Positions 51,850 through 57,955 of a stretch of 64,000 nt of DNA are shown in pieces; position 1 is the first letter of the stretch, and every line of letters begins with the position of its first letter. A program made the position numbers and the translations under genes. The notes beneath the pieces are model-generated. The model did no database searches, was not told the origin of the DNA, and saw only the letters and a program-made list of their open reading frames with translations. The DNA is taken from NCBI RefSeq assembly GCF_988243305.1, contig NZ_OZ547136.1. The stretch is one strand, 5' to 3'.

Positions 51850-53703
51850 TTATGATGATGCCGGTGCATTTATCTCCAGCACCAGACTTTCTATCTCAAC
51901 GCCATACGCTGCATTTTTGGTAATATCCGTCAGCGTCAGCGCATTCAGCCCCAGTGTCAGACTGTCTTTTATGACCTGGAATGCCGGGCCAGCCACTCCA
52001 TTCAGTTTCGGAGTAACCGTGGCACTGCCGGCGGTGAACACCAGTTCCAGCGTCTGCCAGTCATTACTGTAATTCCCGAACTCGCCCAACTTTGTGTTTC
52101 CTGCTTTCTTGTGATGCATCAGATTCAGTTTGCCGTCTGTGGTCTGGGTGAAGAACGACATCAGGAACGGGTTACCAGTCCCGGCCATCGCCACGACGTC
52201 AGGTAACGCTACATCGGTATACAGATAAATTCCCAGGCCGAACTGGTTGTTGGTCAGTGCGCCTGACAGTCGAAACTTACAGCTCAGTCTGCCACCCCGT
52301 GTCAGCAGGGAGACTGCGTCATCCACCGGATGCATCAGGGACCAGGTTTTATTGCTCTGCTTGGCGATCTTAAATACACCACCCGACAACTGAATTCCGC
52401 CGTCCTTAATGGTCCAGCCCTGCGCAGCAGCCTCTCCGGCTGTCGGCAACAGGGAGATTGTGCGTACGGATGCATCTTCAGACGGCCCCGATGGCGTGTT
52501 GCCGCCGGGCGAGGGTTTGATTTCCGGTGCCTTACCACTGATGAAAGCTGAGGTGCGCCCGGCTGCGTTCAGAATAGCGGTTGCCATACGATCCGGAATA
52601 ATGCTCCTGCGCGCCCATGAACTGAAATGTGTCGGGCGGTTTGATGATACCTGGTTTCCATTCGTTCTCGATGCCGCACCGTAATATCCTGATGCCGGAA
52701 TATCCGGATCTTCTGCCGGTGCGTTAGTGGCGGTATTGACGCCGTTACCGTCTGTCATGAAGGGCACAAAATAAACGCCCTCACTCTCCCTGTTTTTATA
52801 CCCGCCGTACACGGTGTCGTACTGGGTAGCGTATGTATTTTTCCAGTAATACGTCGTGTCACCACAAATCCACGGCACATTTACAGCACTACCACCATGA
52901 CACTGCGCGTTAAACACAGTGAGGTCAGCACGAAACTGCTTCAGCATGGCTGTAAACAGCGCAGGTTGCTGTGCGTAGGTGGCGGCGTTCATGTCAAACT
53001 CTCCCTGCATCCAGCACACCGCCAGCAACACATTTTTCGGGTTCTTCTGTAATGCAGCTTTAGTGCGCGCAATCAGGTCCTGATATAACGGTTTACCCAC
53101 ACCCCAGCGTGCCGAATCCTGGCTGGCCCCCGCGTCCGCACTGAATGTCCCCTCCGCGCCCTTGGTGAATGCCGAACCACCACGACAGCATGGTACCAGC
53201 AGGATCCCCGCGTTATTCGGGATATACGGGAGCAGTTTTTTGGCAATATGTAAGCCCTGGCCGACACAGCCGTACTGCCCTTTGCTCAGGTCTGCCTTCG
53301 GATGATTCAGCGTACTCATATCCTGCACATCATGCAGACAGTGGTCAGCCGGGATGATGTCGTTATACGTACAACTCTCTCCACCCGGAGTTACCGTGCT
53401 GCGGCGCGCCAGCTGTTTAATGCGCGGATCCGGAGCATCGTAAGAATCCGGTAACGGAAGCCCTTCACCGTAGGCCATGCCGTTGGACTGTCCGGCAAGC
53501 ACAACCACGTAGAACCAGTCCGGCTCAGATGAAGGGCCGACCTGTGGATCTCCTTCAATAGCCACCGCCTGCATCAGTGTGTACGGCGTAATGGCAACCG
53601 GTCCGCCATATGGCTGCCAGCCCTCTTTCAGTTTGTGTGTCAGCTTTTCCGCAAGGTCTGACGGCGACGCCGCCCTGACAACATCATAGTGTTTAAATGC
53701 CAT
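51850..53703 (-). CDS. Prophage sialate O-acetylesterase (NanS-p / YjhS-like)
   Basis: 617-aa ORF in the position this gene holds in Stx-type phages, between the tRNA cluster and S. Confidence 0.8.
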   Translation of the reverse strand: MAFKHYDVVRAASPSDLAEKLTHKLKEGWQPYGGPVAITPYTLMQAVAIEGDPQVGPSSEPDWFYVVVLAGQSNGMAYGEGLPLPDSYDAPDPRIKQLARRSTVTPGGESCTYNDIIPADHCLHDVQDMSTLNHPKADLSKGQYGCVGQGLHIAKKLLPYIPNNAGILLVPCCRGGSAFTKGAEGTFSADAGASQDSARWGVGKPLYQDLIARTKAALQKNPKNVLLAVCWMQGEFDMNAATYAQQPALFTAMLKQFRADLTVFNAQCHGGSAVNVPWICGDTTYYWKNTYATQYDTVYGGYKNRESEGVYFVPFMTDGNGVNTATNAPAEDPDIPASGYYGAASRTNGNQVSSNRPTHFSSWARRSIIPDRMATAILNAAGRTSAFISGKAPEIKPSPGGNTPSGPSEDASVRTISLLPTAGEAAAQGWTIKDGGIQLSGGVFKIAKQSNKTWSLMHPVDDAVSLLTRGGRLSCKFRLSGALTNNQFGLGIYLYTDVALPDVVAMAGTGNPFLMSFFTQTTDGKLNLMHHKKAGNTKLGEFGNYSNDWQTLELVFTAGSATVTPKLNGVAGPAFQVIKDSLTLGLNALTLTDITKNAAYGVEIESLVLEINAPASS

Positions 53704-54192
53704 GAATCCTCCCGGCCGGGATAATATTGTGAGTAAAATGAGGAGCGGGCTGAAGTCCGGAAGTTACAGGACAATGGCAGAAGAGAGACAATAGCCCGCA
53801 ATACGAAAAAGGCCGCGCTATTGCGCAGAGTGATTACTGTCAGATATTATTCGCCAGCTGAAATATTACTTCACGTTTTGTTGTTTATTCCTTGCCGCCC
53901 GCGTCTCCCTGCGCGGGATTTTTTTGTCCATAAGAAAGCCCCTCCGGAGAGGGGCTGGAGAGTGGCGCTATGTGCCATTGCATGGTGCCGGGTGCCTCCC
54001 GGTGAATTCAGTACCAGCACCTGAATCCGCGATTATCCCATATACCTACTCGCTGATTGCCCCTCCGCACAGGGGGATTCACCATGCCAGTTTCTTTTAA
54101 CAAACTCCCCGCAAAACAGACAACTGTCAACCGTCTGAATTGTGAGACATTTAAAAAAAAGGCCCGCAAAAGCGAGCCAGGGAAAATAAGTG

Positions 54193-54269
54193 TGGCGCGT
54201 TGTACTGGATTCGAACCAGTGACCGATTGCTTAGAAGGCAATTGCTCTGTCCGGCTGAGCTAACAACGC
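54193..54269 (-). tRNA. argO: tRNA-Arg (anticodon UCU), argO-like
   Basis: Hand-folded cloverleaf; anticodon loop CTTCTAA; T-arm GGTTCGAATCC; 3' CCA encoded. Confidence 0.8.
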
Positions 54270-54282
54270 AGGGTACAGATAA

Positions 54283-54359
54283 TGGACCGCCATCGAGGAC
54301 TCGAACCCCGCGCAACCAGCTTCGAAGGCTGGCGCTCTATCCTGATGAGCTAATGGCGG
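54283..54359 (-). tRNA. argN: tRNA-Arg (anticodon UCG), argN-like
   Basis: Hand-folded; anticodon loop CTTCGAA; T-arm GGTTCGAGTCC; 3' CCA encoded. Confidence 0.75.
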
Positions 54360-54366
54360 TATGTGA

Positions 54367-54438
54367 TGGTGGCCCTTGCTGGATTTGAACCAGCGACCTG
54401 GCGATTATGAGTCGCTCTCACCACTGAGCTAAAGGGCC
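54367..54438 (-). tRNA. ileZ: tRNA with CAU anticodon (Ile2/Met type), ileZ-like
   Basis: Hand-folded; anticodon loop CTCATAA; T-arm GGTTCAAATCC; short D-loop; 3' CCA encoded. Confidence 0.7.
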
Positions 54439-54600
54439 GGGAGCCGCATAATAACGACGCGTAATTAATTCTTCAATATCATCCGTTCTGGCTGACTAAA
54501 TCCTGTACTTCCCGAACCGTCTGCTCAAAACATTCAGTCTCCAGCTCAACGCCAATTGCACGACGCCCGAGCGCCAGTGCTGCTTTGACGCTACGGACAT

Positions 54601-54629
54601 AAAAAAGCCAGCCACTGGGGGAGGCTGGC
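54601..54629 (-). terminator. Intrinsic terminator upstream of the tRNA cluster
   Basis: gccagcc...ggctggc hairpin followed on the minus strand by TTTTTT. Confidence 0.5.
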
Positions 54630-55263
54630 GAAACTCGTAGAGCAAAAGTGTTGTTACACTAACTTCGTCACAGGGTTATCCTGCAATACTCAAAATACAC
54701 AATATTTACAAAACTAATAGTATACAAGGCGATCTTTAAGATTTTGTTATAAATTATTGCCTTTCTCCTCTTTCCATGAGCTTTCTGGGTAGCCACAGAA
54801 TTCCGGGTACAGAAAAACCCGCTCAGCGGCGGGTTTAAGCTGTGTGACGAAGTAACCACTCTTAACAGCATAACCAATTTTTTACGTACGTAAACCACTA
54901 AATGATATTTGCGAGAATGCTACCGAGTATTGAAAACACCACTACAAATACATAAGCAAATCTCAACAAATAACCAACAAATAATTTCCAGTGTTATTTT
55001 TAGCCGGTTTAAATTGAACCTTCAAATTATAGAGCACTTATAAATAACAGCCGTTAATATAAATTGGCTAATAGATTTATTTTTATTCAGCCAAGAGCCA
55101 TGAATAGGATTCGATAGAAAAAAGTTCAGATAAAAATAGAGATCTACTTCACAAATCAAACGAGAAACCAAAACTAACATCTTGAAATAATCACATTGAT
55201 TAGATGAATATTTATCGCGCAGTGACATCATTTTTTAATAATAGTTCAAAAAAAGGGCTCACG

Positions 55264-56346
55264 ATGAAAAAATTAACAGTGGCAATTTCTGCTGTAGCTG
55301 CATCAGTACTGATGGCGATGTCTGCTCAGGCAGCTGAAATTTATAATAAAGACAGTAACAAGCTGGATCTGTACGGGAAAGTTAATGCTAAGCACTATTT
55401 CTCCTCTAATGATGCAGATGATGGTGATACTACTTATGCCCGTCTTGGCTTCAAAGGTGAAACCCAAATCAACGATCAACTGACTGGTTTCGGTCAGTGG
55501 GAATATGAATTCAAAGGCAACCGCGCTGAATCTCAAGGTTCCTCCAAAGATAAAACCCGTCTTGCCTTCGCTGGCCTGAAATTCGGTGACTACGGCTCAA
55601 TCGATTACGGCCGTAACTACGGTGTAGCATACGACATCGGTGCGTGGACTGACGTTCTGCCAGAATTCGGTGGCGATACCTGGACCCAAACAGATGTGTT
55701 CATGACTGGTCGCACCACTGGTGTTGCAACTTATCGTAACAACGACTTCTTTGGTCTGGTTGATGGTCTGAACTTTGCTGCTCAGTATCAGGGTAAAAAT
55801 GACCGCACTGACGTAACTGAAGCTAATGGTGATGGTTTCGGTTTCTCCACTACTTATGAGTATGAAGGATTCGGTGTAGGTGCAACCTATGCTAAATCTG
55901 ACCGCACTAATAATCAGGTTATCTACGGTAACAACAGCCTGAATGCATCTGGTCAAAATGCTGAAGTATGGGCAGCTGGTCTGAAATATGATGCGAACAA
56001 CATCTATCTGGCTACCACCTATTCTGAAACCCAGAACATGACTGTTTTTGGTAATAACCATATTGCCAACAAAGCACAAAACTTCGAAGTAGTTGCACAA
56101 TATCAGTTCGACTTCGGTCTGCGTCCGTCCGTTGCTTACCTGCAATCTAAAGGAAAAGACTTGGGTGCGTGGGGTGATCAGGACCTGGTTGAATATATTG
56201 ATGTAGGTGCAACCTATTACTTCAACAAAAATATGTCCACTTTTGTTGATTACAAAATCAACCTGATTGATAAGAGCGATTTCACGAAAGCATCTGGCGT
56301 TGCTACCGATGATATCGTTGCTGTAGGTATGGTTTACCAGTTCTAA
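55264..56346 (+). CDS. Prophage-encoded OmpC/OmpF-family porin (NmpC/Lc-like)
   Basis: ORF 55204..56346 trimmed to the [23 protein letters not shown] signal peptide; ends in ...VGMVYQF; opposite strand to the late operon. Confidence 0.9.
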
Positions 56347-56482
56347 TTTGATTACTAAAAGATATGTTGCGGGAGGCTTTGCCTCCCCAACATATAAGTG
56401 GCTCCCTCAAGCCACTTCCTTTAGGAGCACAACCTTGCTTCTAACTATATAAACCTTCTGTTATATATTACCCTTTATTTTT

Positions 56483-56510
56483 GGGGGCGTTGCAACGCCC
56501 CATTTTTAAT
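56483..56510 (+). terminator. Intrinsic terminator after the porin gene
   Basis: gggggcgttgcaacgcccc followed by atttttaataatttt. Confidence 0.55.
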
Positions 56511-56534
56511 AATTTTTAGTAAACAATTGGCATA

Positions 56535-56918
56535 TTAATTAGAGTTATTAACAACGATATCCATCTCTAACCGGATATCTAATGCCATTAACATCCCTTC
56601 AATTATGCCCTCAGCCTTCTGTAACCTTTTCCCGATATAACCATCAGAGCAGCAATGCTTACCTGCCAGTGACATGAATGTCATACCGACTACATAATAA
56701 TCTACTAATAAATCGTGCAAATCGCTGTTGTTCTTTTTCAGACGGGCCATGCACCCGCAAATAATCATCGCGTCATCGTCACAACATTGCGGGCGAGATT
56801 TTACTTTTGAAGTAATTAATCCCTTAAAACCGGCGGCAATGGACGACCAGGTCACATCTTCATGATTATTAGCCGCCCACGCTCCCCAGCGTTCGAGAAC
56901 CATCTGAATATCACGCAT
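56535..56918 (-). CDS. Q: Late gene antiterminator Q (QuuD-like)
   Basis: ORF 56535..56933 trimmed to [22 protein letters not shown]...; Cys-rich zinc-binding region. Confidence 0.85.
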
Positions 56919-56935
56919 CAACTTTCTCCACAAAA

Positions 56936-57955
56936 TCAGGACAGCACACCAATCGCCAGCGCGCGATCGATAAAACGAAATATCAGCTCCAGTTGGGAAC
57001 CATACTTCTCTTCAAATGCCACGGTATCCGCATGTAGTTCGTCATGGTGTTTTCTGCACAAAGGCAACACAAAAAGGTCATGCGCTTTTGTACCCATTCC
57101 ACCCTGACCATGACCAATCAGGTGATGAGGATCGTCGGCTGGCTTACCACAACATGCACACGGCTGCGTCTTAACCCAGCGCGTGTACTTTTCATTAACC
57201 CAGCGACGACGTTTTGGGCGTAACATAAAAGACTCCGGCGACTCCGGATCCACTTTCAGCGCCAGCACCTTTTTCGCTTTATCCTGGATGATGCTGGTGG
57301 CAGGAACCGAAGGCACAAGGTCACTTTCCCGGGTGACAGACGGCACAACAGGCTTCGGTAATCTCAGTGCCTTACGGGCTGCACTTTCCGGTAAGGCATC
57401 CGCCAGGTCATTACGAATCAGCCACCAGCACAGTTCCGGCATTGTCACAACGTGACTGTCATCAAAACCGAGATCCCGACGCACAACAGACAACACCCAG
57501 CGGGCACAGTTATCCGTTGCCATTGATTCCAGCCGTTCCGTGAACTGATCGCGCAGCTGGTTATCGCAGTGCCAGCACAGACGGATTGCACCCGGAGCGT
57601 GTCGCATTGTGGTCATGTTCTCGCTGTGCCAGTCGGAATGAGGCCACTGGCAGCCTTTTTCACGAAGTAACCAGCTTTCAAGACATTCCACGCCACCAGC
57701 ACGACGGATCACTGCCTCATTGCGGAACACGGCCCGAACGGCAGGATCATCCGCCAGCGGTTGTGATGCCGCCGGAACGGCACCACTGGCGAAAGATGAA
57801 TAACGTTCCGGCTCAGGCTCCAGCAGGACACGCCCCTGCATAAACAGGGGCATCAGCTCTGAACCGGGCCTGAACAATACAATCCCCATACGCGGGGCAA
57901 TTTCAGGGGTCAGCAGTGCTCTCACGGTCACCTCAGCAAACGATATTGAATGCAT
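56936..57955 (-). CDS. DUF968-like protein with C-terminal HNH-like Cys/His motif
   Basis: 339-aa ORF immediately upstream of Q; CACCGK...HHLIGHG...CRKHHDELH. Confidence 0.6.

What the first reader, a model, noticed from the sequence alone, without database searches (positions are those of the whole stretch)
55264..56520. Porin gene inserted antisense immediately downstream of Q
An OmpC-family porin with its own signal peptide and terminator lies on the strand opposite the late operon, between Q and the tRNA cluster, so late transcripts must read antisense through it. It is probably expressed from its own promoter in the lysogen (lysogenic conversion of outer membrane permeability or phage receptor profile). 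An ~800-bp largely non-coding region (54440-55260) lies upstream of it.
Basis: partly seen in the sequence, partly recalled or inferred. Interest (0 to 1): 0.35.

Follow-up and report, generated by a model that had tools for sequence, protein, structure and literature searches.

The report
Known prophage porin cassette (lc/nmpC type)

Summary
An intact 360-aa general porin (55264-56346, +) with a signal peptide and its own terminator lies opposite the phage genes, between Q (56535-56918, -) and three tRNAs (54193-54438, -). It is not new. It is the lc/nmpC lysogenic-conversion porin of lambdoid phages: 100% identical to the porin of phage PhiR34_1, and 90% identical to both PA-2 Lc and K-12 NmpC. 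Its promoter region is 98-99% identical to that of DLP12, and its 3'UTR, the IpeX RNA locus, is about 96% identical. At least 80% of the cassette is present in 2464 of 5426 complete E. coli genomes.

The main correction concerns the late promoter. The homologue of the mapped Stx-phage PR' occurs once in the window, at 54894-54867 (-), about 370 bp beyond the porin start codon. PR' abuts the Q stop codon in H-19B and VT2-Sakai. Here, as in DLP12, PA-2 and 434B, a roughly 1.66-kb porin cassette separates Q from PR'. Late transcripts therefore start past the porin and run away from it. Only early-operon read-through past Q could be antisense to it.

The "non-coding" 800 bp holds the porin promoter, PR', a roughly 259-nt StxS-like leader with tR', and a methyltransferase remnant. 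Interest is low.

The parts
56535..56918 (-). Antiterminator Q, QuuD type, 127 aa from the ATG start
   Evidence: Matches PF06530 at E=4e-53. It is 100% identical to K-12 QuuD. It is 80% identical to H-19B Q overall, diverging after about residue 120 into a different tail that is 17 aa shorter (A4).
56347..56512 (+). Porin 3'UTR, the IpeX RNA locus (about 166 nt). It contains hairpins at 56362-56395 and 56396-56417 and ends at the porin terminator.
   Evidence: About 96% identical to the DLP12 and PA-2 nmpC/lc-Q intergenic region (A1, A7); two of the five differences, at 56379 and 56492-56493, fall in hairpin loops. Folds at -61 kcal/mol, z=-7.9. [quoted passage not shown]
56484..56507 (+). 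Intrinsic terminator of the porin transcript, 28 bp before the Q stop codon
   Evidence: Terminator scan: 7-bp stem with 6 G-C pairs, followed by ATTTTT. On the - strand the same hairpin has no T-run.
55264..56346 (+). Porin CDS (lc/nmpC type), 360 aa. The signal peptide is encoded by 55264-55332.
   Evidence: Full-length PDB matches to OmpK37, OmpC and PhoE, E about 1e-137 to 1e-134. 100% identical to the PhiR34_1 porin, 90.1% to reconstructed K-12 NmpC and 90.1% to PA-2 Lc.
54895..55263 (+). Porin promoter and regulatory region (PnmpC homologue), 30% G+C. Includes a CRP-like site at 55138-55153. My inferred promoter is TTGAAA 55182-55187, an 18-nt spacer, then GAATAT 55206-55211, with a G start at about 55217-55219.
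   Evidence: 99.2% identical to DLP12 (A5). PnmpC is active in K-12 and its start, a G, was mapped by 5'RACE (PMC11677980). The CRP site annotated in the PA-2 record at 1363-1383 corresponds to window 55135-55155. The hexamers and start position are my inference from the sequence.
54867..54894 (-). Late promoter PR' homologue: -35 TTTACG, 16-nt spacer, -10 TATGCT, predicted start at about 54860
   Evidence: Aligns with the H-19B and VT2-Sakai promoter that overlaps their Q stop codon. The 43-nt block occurs once in the window, with 0 expected by chance. It also occurs once, in the late-gene orientation, in each of the 7 loci fetched.
54813..54835 (-). First leader hairpin with a U-run (AACCCGC...GCGGGTTTTT). 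DLP12-type phages diverge from the window immediately after it.
   Evidence: Alignment A3. The H-19B counterpart is flagged as terminator-like. The megablast match to DLP12-type phages begins at query position 373, which is window 54812.
54601..54860 (-). StxS-like PR' leader RNA, about 259 nt, ending at the tR' hairpin GCCAGCC...GGCTGGC plus T6 (54629-54601)
   Evidence: The aligned Q-downstream stretch is 82% identical (mean column identity) to H-19B and VT2-Sakai (A2, A6). StxS was mapped as a 258-nt RNA running from PR' to tR' (PMC7547250). The same spacing is found here.
54479..54592 (-). Remnant of a DNA methyltransferase gene (pseudogene)
   Evidence: RefSeq annotation of the 99.9%-identical strain 15A. 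The region is collinear with VT2-Sakai.
54193..54438 (-). tRNA cluster: Arg-TCT, Arg-TCG and a CAT-anticodon tRNA. ARAGORN calls the last one Met; RefSeq calls it Ile.
   Evidence: The order matches the Ile-Arg-Arg tRNAs of VT2-Sakai.

Best explanation
This is the lc/nmpC-type porin cassette of a lambdoid prophage, a lysogenic-conversion module of about 1.66 kb. It sits between the antiterminator gene Q and Q's target, the late promoter PR'.

The porin is transcribed from its own sigma-70 promoter, the PnmpC homologue, reported for DLP12 as CRP-activated and repressed by OmpR, IHF and MprA. That promoter lies back-to-back with PR'. Transcription ends at a strong intrinsic terminator 28 bp short of the Q stop codon. 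The mRNA yields a classical 16-strand trimeric general porin. Its roughly 166-nt 3'UTR is the IpeX RNA, which lowers host OmpC and OmpF.

The net effect in the lysogen is replacement of host porins by the phage porin. That changes permeability and removes the OmpC receptor used by related phages, giving superinfection exclusion.

Late transcription starts at PR' (about 54860, - strand) and runs away from the porin, through an StxS-like leader and tR', the tRNAs, the esterase gene and the lysis genes. Only transcripts that enter from the early operon through Q can be antisense to the porin.

Shown here: the anatomy, the homologies and the position of PR'. Inferred from the literature on PA-2 and DLP12: expression in lysogens, IpeX action and phage exclusion.
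For: Porin family and intactness. Identity to phage porins: 100% to PhiR34_1, 90.1% to PA-2 Lc and 90.1% to K-12 NmpC. The same Q / antisense porin / lysis-gene order is seen in 434B, PhiR34_1, DLP12 and PA-2. Promoter region 98-99% identical to DLP12, where PnmpC is active and its start is mapped (PMC11677980). 3'UTR about 96% identical to the IpeX locus, with IpeX described in PMC12197685. PR' homologue located once, beyond the porin. The PR'-to-tR' distance of about 259 nt matches the mapped 258-nt StxS. No promoter-like site on the - strand in the Q-porin gap. At least 80% of the cassette present in 2464 of 5426 complete E. coli genomes.
Against: No expression data exist for this strain, and nmpC homologues are known to be silent in some E. 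coli strains. PR' is assigned by homology to the Stx-phage promoter, not mapped in this phage type. Published DLP12 work appears to place the lysis-operon start elsewhere: at about window 55215 (-), next to a sigma-E-like motif. I reconstructed that position from a primer sequence and the published -121/+650 numbering, and the reverse primer could not be located. That site also lies beyond the porin start codon, so the main conclusion is unaffected. The original PA-2, nmpC and IpeX papers were not held in the library. The receptor-exclusion step therefore rests on my own knowledge of that literature.
Confidence: 0.85

Rival explanations
1. One reading: the late promoter lies directly after Q, as in lambda and the Stx phages, so Q-modified late transcripts read antisense through the whole porin gene.
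For: In H-19B and VT2-Sakai, PR' does overlap the Q stop codon. The 188-bp Q-porin gap is strongly structured on the - strand too (z=-6.2).
Against: The PR' block is found once in the window, at 54852-54894, and not in the gap. The scan finds no - strand promoter-like site in 56347-56534. In all four DLP12-type loci the same block lies between the porin and the lysis genes.
Confidence: 0.04
2. The porin is antisense to early-operon transcripts, not late ones. Antiterminated transcription that passes through Q during lytic growth continues across the porin and shuts it off by collision or antisense pairing. The porin and IpeX would then be made only in the lysogen.
For: No consensus intrinsic terminator lies on the - strand between Q and the porin. 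The large hairpin there is followed only by CTTTTAG. The gene orientation is convergent.
Against: Nothing here shows that such read-through occurs. In K-12, placing a terminator in the nmpC/quuD gap had little effect on a downstream read-out (PMC11677980), although that was tested in a cryptic, uninduced prophage.
Confidence: 0.4
3. The gene is a silent passenger in this strain, intact but not expressed, as reported for nmpC in some E. coli.
For: nmpC is described as quiescent or not expressed in several strains (PMC3333887; PMC5745476). In K-12, though, the cause is an IS5 insertion.
Against: The ORF, promoter region and 3'UTR are all intact. The divergent two-thirds of the ORF has dN/dS of about 0.1 against NmpC, which indicates purifying selection. 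The K-12 promoter is active.
Confidence: 0.15

Closest known systems
Lc porin (gene lc) of lambdoid phage PA-2, GenBank J02580
   Same: Same position and orientation next to Q and the lysis genes. 90.1% protein identity. The PR' block and the annotated CRP site fall at the same relative positions. The 3'UTR is near-identical.
   Different: The C-terminal two-thirds of the ORF is a diverged allele with differences in three blocks, judged against NmpC and assuming Lc groups with it. Downstream of PR', this prophage continues into Stx-phage-type sequence (StxS 3' part, tRNAs, esterase) rather than directly into the holin gene.
NmpC of cryptic prophage DLP12 (E. coli K-12), with the IpeX RNA
   Same: Q is 100% identical. 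Promoter region 99%, 3'UTR 96% and PR' block 98% identical.
   Different: The K-12 gene is broken by IS5; this one is intact. Porin nucleotides 451-1083 are only 83% identical. dS is about 0.89 there against 0.11 in the first 148 codons.
PR' / StxS / tR' late regulatory region of Stx phages (H-19B, VT2-Sakai/933W type)
   Same: Homologous promoter, leader and terminator at about 82% identity. The PR'-to-tR' length of about 258 nt is the same, as are the downstream methyltransferase remnant and tRNAs (PMC7547250).
   Different: In Stx phages PR' overlaps the Q stop codon. Here it is 1.66 kb away, with the porin cassette in between. No stx genes follow the tRNAs.
Chromosomal general porins OmpC, OmpF, PhoE and OmpN (OmpK37)
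   Same: Same fold family, with full-length alignment. The PEFGG loop-3 motif and C-terminal Phe are present.
   Different: It is carried by a prophage rather than sitting at a chromosomal porin locus. It scores below the equivalog cut-offs for PhoE and OmpF and passes only the OmpC subfamily model.

Membership tests
General bacterial porin (Pfam Porin_1; OmpC/OmpF/PhoE family) | Full-length match to the family profile above the curated cut-off | tested here: met
   PF00267 scores 510.6 bits against a 23.7 cut-off, covering profile positions 1-337 of 337.
General bacterial porin (Pfam Porin_1; OmpC/OmpF/PhoE family) | Cleavable signal peptide, the loop-3 PEFGG motif and a C-terminal aromatic residue | tested here: met
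   Read directly from the translation...[18 protein letters not shown] and ...VYQF. That these motifs define the family is established knowledge.
General bacterial porin (Pfam Porin_1; OmpC/OmpF/PhoE family) | 16-strand beta-barrel trimer that forms a diffusion pore | not tested
   Inferred only from full-length sequence matches to solved porins, E about 1e-137.
Lambdoid prophage porin cassette (lc/nmpC with IpeX) | Porin gene next to Q, on the strand opposite the late genes | tested here: met
   The same layout is seen in DLP12, 434B, PhiR34_1 and PA-2.
Lambdoid prophage porin cassette (lc/nmpC with IpeX) | High identity to Lc and NmpC | tested here: met
   90.1% to NmpC, 90.1% to Lc and 100% to the PhiR34_1 porin.
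Lambdoid prophage porin cassette (lc/nmpC with IpeX) | Conserved IpeX 3'UTR between the stop codon and the intrinsic terminator | tested here: met
   About 96% identical to DLP12 and PA-2, with two of the five differences in hairpin loops. Strongly structured, z=-7.9.
Lambdoid prophage porin cassette (lc/nmpC with IpeX) | PnmpC-type promoter region with CRP sites | tested here: met
   99% identical to DLP12. A CRP-like site sits at the position annotated in the PA-2 record.
Lambdoid prophage porin cassette (lc/nmpC with IpeX) | Expressed in the lysogen, with reduced OmpC/OmpF and exclusion of OmpC-dependent phages | not testable with these tools
   Needs outer-membrane proteomics and phage plating.
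Chromosomal OmpC orthologue (the name given by RefSeq) | Located at the chromosomal ompC locus rather than on a mobile element | tested here: not met
   The gene lies inside a prophage, between Q and PR'. It passes only the subfamily-level NCBIfam model.
Q-dependent late promoter region (PR'-leader-tR'), Stx-phage type | Homology to the mapped PR', with a leader of about 258 nt ending at tR' | tested here: met
   The predicted length here is about 259 nt, against 258 nt mapped in PMC7547250.
Q-dependent late promoter region (PR'-leader-tR'), Stx-phage type | Promoter immediately downstream of, or overlapping, the Q stop codon | tested here: not met
   PR' lies 1.64 kb from the Q stop codon, with the porin cassette in between.

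The most novel reading that the evidence does not exclude
The porin ORF may behave as an exchangeable allele inside fixed flanks. Against DLP12, the promoter, the first 148 codons, the IpeX 3'UTR and Q are 96-100% identical, with dS of about 0.11 in those codons. Codons 149-360 are an old, diverged lineage (dS about 0.89, dN/dS about 0.1), and their amino-acid changes cluster in three probably surface-exposed blocks. The conserved regulatory flanks could then serve as recombination anchors for swapping surface-loop alleles among prophages, under selection from phages or immunity. A second possibility is that the convergent Q and porin/IpeX transcripts overlap and couple the lytic switch to porin control.
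Probability: 0.25. Interest if true: 0.3.

Novelty: already known. Interest (0 to 1): 0.1.

Why it matters
It matters little as a discovery. Phage-encoded porins beside Q have been known since PA-2 and nmpC in the 1970s and 1980s, and IpeX since 2006. The cassette is present in almost half of complete E. coli genomes. The useful outcome is a corrected map. The porin cassette separates Q from its late promoter, so it is a divergent neighbour of PR' and not an obstacle inside the late operon. The supposedly empty 800 bp contains the porin promoter, PR' and an StxS-like small-RNA leader. This helps anyone annotating such prophages, or interpreting RNA-seq from them, to avoid the same misreading.

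Tried and rejected
- Promoter in the Q-porin gap. I searched by eye and by scan for a sigma-70 promoter on the - strand. None reached the consensus threshold.
- Rfam. No IpeX or StxS family matched. The weak Qrr and Trp-leader hits at 54598-54931 (E about 0.6) are chance matches over the StxS-like leader.
- The longer ORF from 55204 (380 aa). Rejected: its N-terminus carries no signal peptide, and the inferred transcription start lies downstream of that ATG.
- The antisense 182-aa ORF at 55597-56145. It was not examined further; I take it to be a shadow ORF of the porin.
- PA-2's annotated antisense "ORF1", which starts in the 3'UTR. In this window a 1-nt indel cuts it to 12 codons, so it is not a conserved gene.
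- Original papers. The PA-2/nmpC, IpeX and DLP12 lysis-cassette papers were not held in the library.
- Pasqua reverse primer. It could not be located in DLP12, so the published +1 position is reconstructed from the forward primer alone.
- dN/dS for the three variable blocks alone. The calculation failed because synonymous sites are saturated.

Full report
**1. The observation**

The window is an E. coli lambdoid prophage whose genes run on the - strand. The 3.2-kb stretch 53700-56940 spanning the finding is 99.9% identical to E. coli O111:H21 strain 15A.

- The ORF at 55264-56346 (+) encodes a 360-aa protein.
- It matches Pfam Porin_1 end to end at E=3e-153.
- It passes the NCBIfam OmpC subfamily model but not the PhoE or OmpF equivalog cut-offs.
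- It aligns over its full length with solved porins OmpK37, OmpC and PhoE at E about 1e-137 to 1e-134.
- The signal peptide (…[11 protein letters not shown]), the PEFGG motif and the C-terminal …VYQF are visible in the translation.
- A + strand terminator (GGGGCGTTGCAACGCCCC followed by ATTTTT) lies at 56484-56507.
- Q (PF06530) is at 56535-56918 (-). The tRNAs are at 54193-54438 (-).

**2. What it is**

The segment from 54812 through Q recurs in 35 phage records at 85% or more query coverage. In all of the records I examined (PhiR34_1, 434B, DLP12 and PA-2), a porin lies antisense between Q and the lysis genes. Phage 434B carries the DLP12 qsr' region.

- The protein is 100% identical to the PhiR34_1 porin.
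- It is 90.1% identical to K-12 NmpC, reconstructed across its IS5 insertion.
- It is 90.1% identical to Lc of phage PA-2, GenBank J02580.
- Q is 100% identical to K-12 QuuD.
- At least 80% of the cassette is present in 2464 of 5426 complete E. coli genomes.

This is therefore the classical lc/nmpC prophage porin.

**3. The 3'UTR**

The 188 bp between the porin stop codon and the Q stop codon are about 96% identical to the DLP12 and PA-2 intergenic region. Two of the five differences fall in hairpin loops. The + strand folds at -61 kcal/mol, z=-7.9.

This is the IpeX locus. [quoted passage not shown] The original paper (Castillo-Keller et al. 2006) was not held, so mechanistic details beyond these reviews come from my own knowledge.

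**4. The porin promoter**

The 369 bp upstream of the ATG are 30% G+C and 99% identical to DLP12. In K-12 this promoter, PnmpC, is active. Its start, a G, was mapped by 5'RACE. It is described as CRP-activated and repressed by OmpR, IHF and MprA (PMC11677980).

A CRP-like site at 55138-55153 coincides with the CRP site annotated in the PA-2 record. My reading of the hexamers is TTGAAA, an 18-nt spacer, then GAATAT, with a start at about 55217-55219. That reading is inference.

**5. Where the late promoter is**

In H-19B a promoter TTTACG-16-TATCAT overlaps the Q stop codon. Its predicted start lies 258 nt upstream of the tR' T-run, matching the mapped 258-nt StxS RNA that runs from PR' to tR' (PMC7547250).

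The whole H-19B and VT2-Sakai stretch from PR' through tR' aligns at 82% with the window's - strand from 54900 down to 54600. In VT2-Sakai the alignment continues through a methyltransferase remnant to the tRNAs.

The window's PR' is TTTACG (54894-54889), 16 nt, TATGCT (54872-54867). The 43-nt block occurs once in the window, with 0 expected by chance. It occurs once, in the late-gene orientation, in each of the seven loci examined. In DLP12, 434B, PhiR34_1 and PA-2 it lies between the porin and the holin gene. No - strand promoter-like site exists in the Q-porin gap.

Homology between this Q and the Stx-phage Q genes stops near codon 120, after which this Q has a different and shorter tail. 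Relative to the Stx-phage arrangement, a segment of about 1.66 kb (roughly 54897-56558) separates Q from PR'. It comprises:

- the new Q tail;
- the IpeX region and terminator;
- the porin ORF;
- the porin promoter.

Late transcripts therefore begin about 370-400 bp beyond the porin ATG and run away from it.

**6. A caveat on the DLP12 literature**

Pasqua et al. cloned the DLP12 lysis-operon regulatory region as -121 to +650, following Rueggeberg et al. 2015. Their forward primer anneals inside the nmpC signal-peptide codons. That would put their +1 at about window 55215 (-), beside a sigma-E-like motif: GAACT at 55247-55243, 17 nt, then TC.

I could not read the 2015 paper, and I could not place the reverse primer. 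This site differs from the PR' homologue but also lies beyond the porin ATG. Either way, late transcripts do not cross the porin ORF.

**7. What can be antisense to the porin**

Only transcripts entering through Q from the early operon can be antisense. The - strand has no consensus terminator in the gap: a large hairpin there is followed only by CTTTTAG. Read-through during lytic growth is plausible but untested.

**8. The "non-coding" 800 bp**

Going from the porin toward the tRNAs, this stretch contains:

| Coordinates | Element |
|---|---|
| 54895-55263 | PnmpC regulatory region |
| 54867-54894 | PR' |
| 54813-54835 | Leader hairpin with a U-run |
| about 54812 | Mosaic junction, after which DLP12-type phages diverge and the window follows Stx-phage sequence |
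| to 54601 | Rest of the StxS-like leader, ending at tR' |
| 54479-54592 | Methyltransferase remnant |

**9. Mosaic structure of the ORF**

Compared with DLP12, the flanks and the first 450 nt of the ORF are 96-100% identical. Nucleotides 451-1083 are 83% identical. For codons 1-148, dS is 0.11 and dN is 0. For codons 149-360, dS is 0.89 and dN is 0.09.

The amino-acid differences cluster at residues 181-186, 217-231 and 262-266. This points to an old allele recombined between conserved flanks and kept under purifying selection.

**10. Verdict**

This is a real, intact and very common element of a known kind. The antisense-late-transcript mechanism is not. Interest is low.

Noticed in passing
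window 54601-54860 (-): A full-length homologue of the Stx-phage StxS leader RNA (PR' to tR', about 259 nt, about 82% identical to H-19B and VT2-Sakai) is present in a prophage that carries no stx genes. Its first roughly 50 nt are of DLP12 type and the rest of Stx-phage type, with the junction right after the first hairpin.
   Followed up: partly
window 53926-54116 (-): Rfam STnc100 sRNA match (139 bits against a gathering score of 47, E=2e-31). It lies between the tRNA cluster and the esterase gene, where Stx phages carry stxAB.
   Followed up: no
window 53704-54192: No stx genes: only about 490 bp separate the tRNAs from the NanS-p-like SASA esterase gene (51850-53703, -). The architecture is otherwise that of an Stx phage.
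   Followed up: no
window 54367-54438 (-): ARAGORN calls the CAT-anticodon tRNA Met, while RefSeq annotates it as Ile in strain 15A. It occupies the position of the Ile tRNA of VT2-Sakai.
   Followed up: no
window 55215-55247 (-): A sigma-E-like motif (GAACT, 17 nt, TC) lies back-to-back with the inferred porin transcription start. By my reconstruction from a published primer, it is where DLP12 work places the lysis-operon +1, about 355 nt upstream of the PR' homologue's predicted start (about 54860). The two assignments are unreconciled.
   Followed up: partly
window 55714-56346 (+): The 3' two-thirds of the porin ORF is far more diverged from DLP12 (83% nt identity, dS about 0.89) than the surrounding 96-100% identical DNA. 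This is a recombinational mosaic, with amino-acid changes in three blocks.
   Followed up: partly
window 56936-57955 (-): A DUF968/HNH-like gene lies directly upstream of Q. DLP12-type phages have rusA and ylcG there, and Stx phages have ninG and ninH.
   Followed up: no
L004 2592-3786; L001 3862-5056; hit H119: IS5 interrupts the porin in K-12 DLP12, in phage 434B and in at least one other genome (strain THB42-F4). IS1 appears near the cassette in others (H46, H47). Insertion into this gene looks recurrent.
   Followed up: no
hits H162-H165 (phages JL22, phi456, P7): P1/P7-like plasmid prophages also carry an nmpC-type porin, about 82% identical. The porin is therefore not confined to lambdoid phages.
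   Followed up: no
hits H38-H52: In several E. coli genomes a gene annotated 'tolA' lies within the matched Q-to-esterase stretch that also holds the porin and tRNAs. That stretch is about 750 bp longer than in this window.
   Followed up: no
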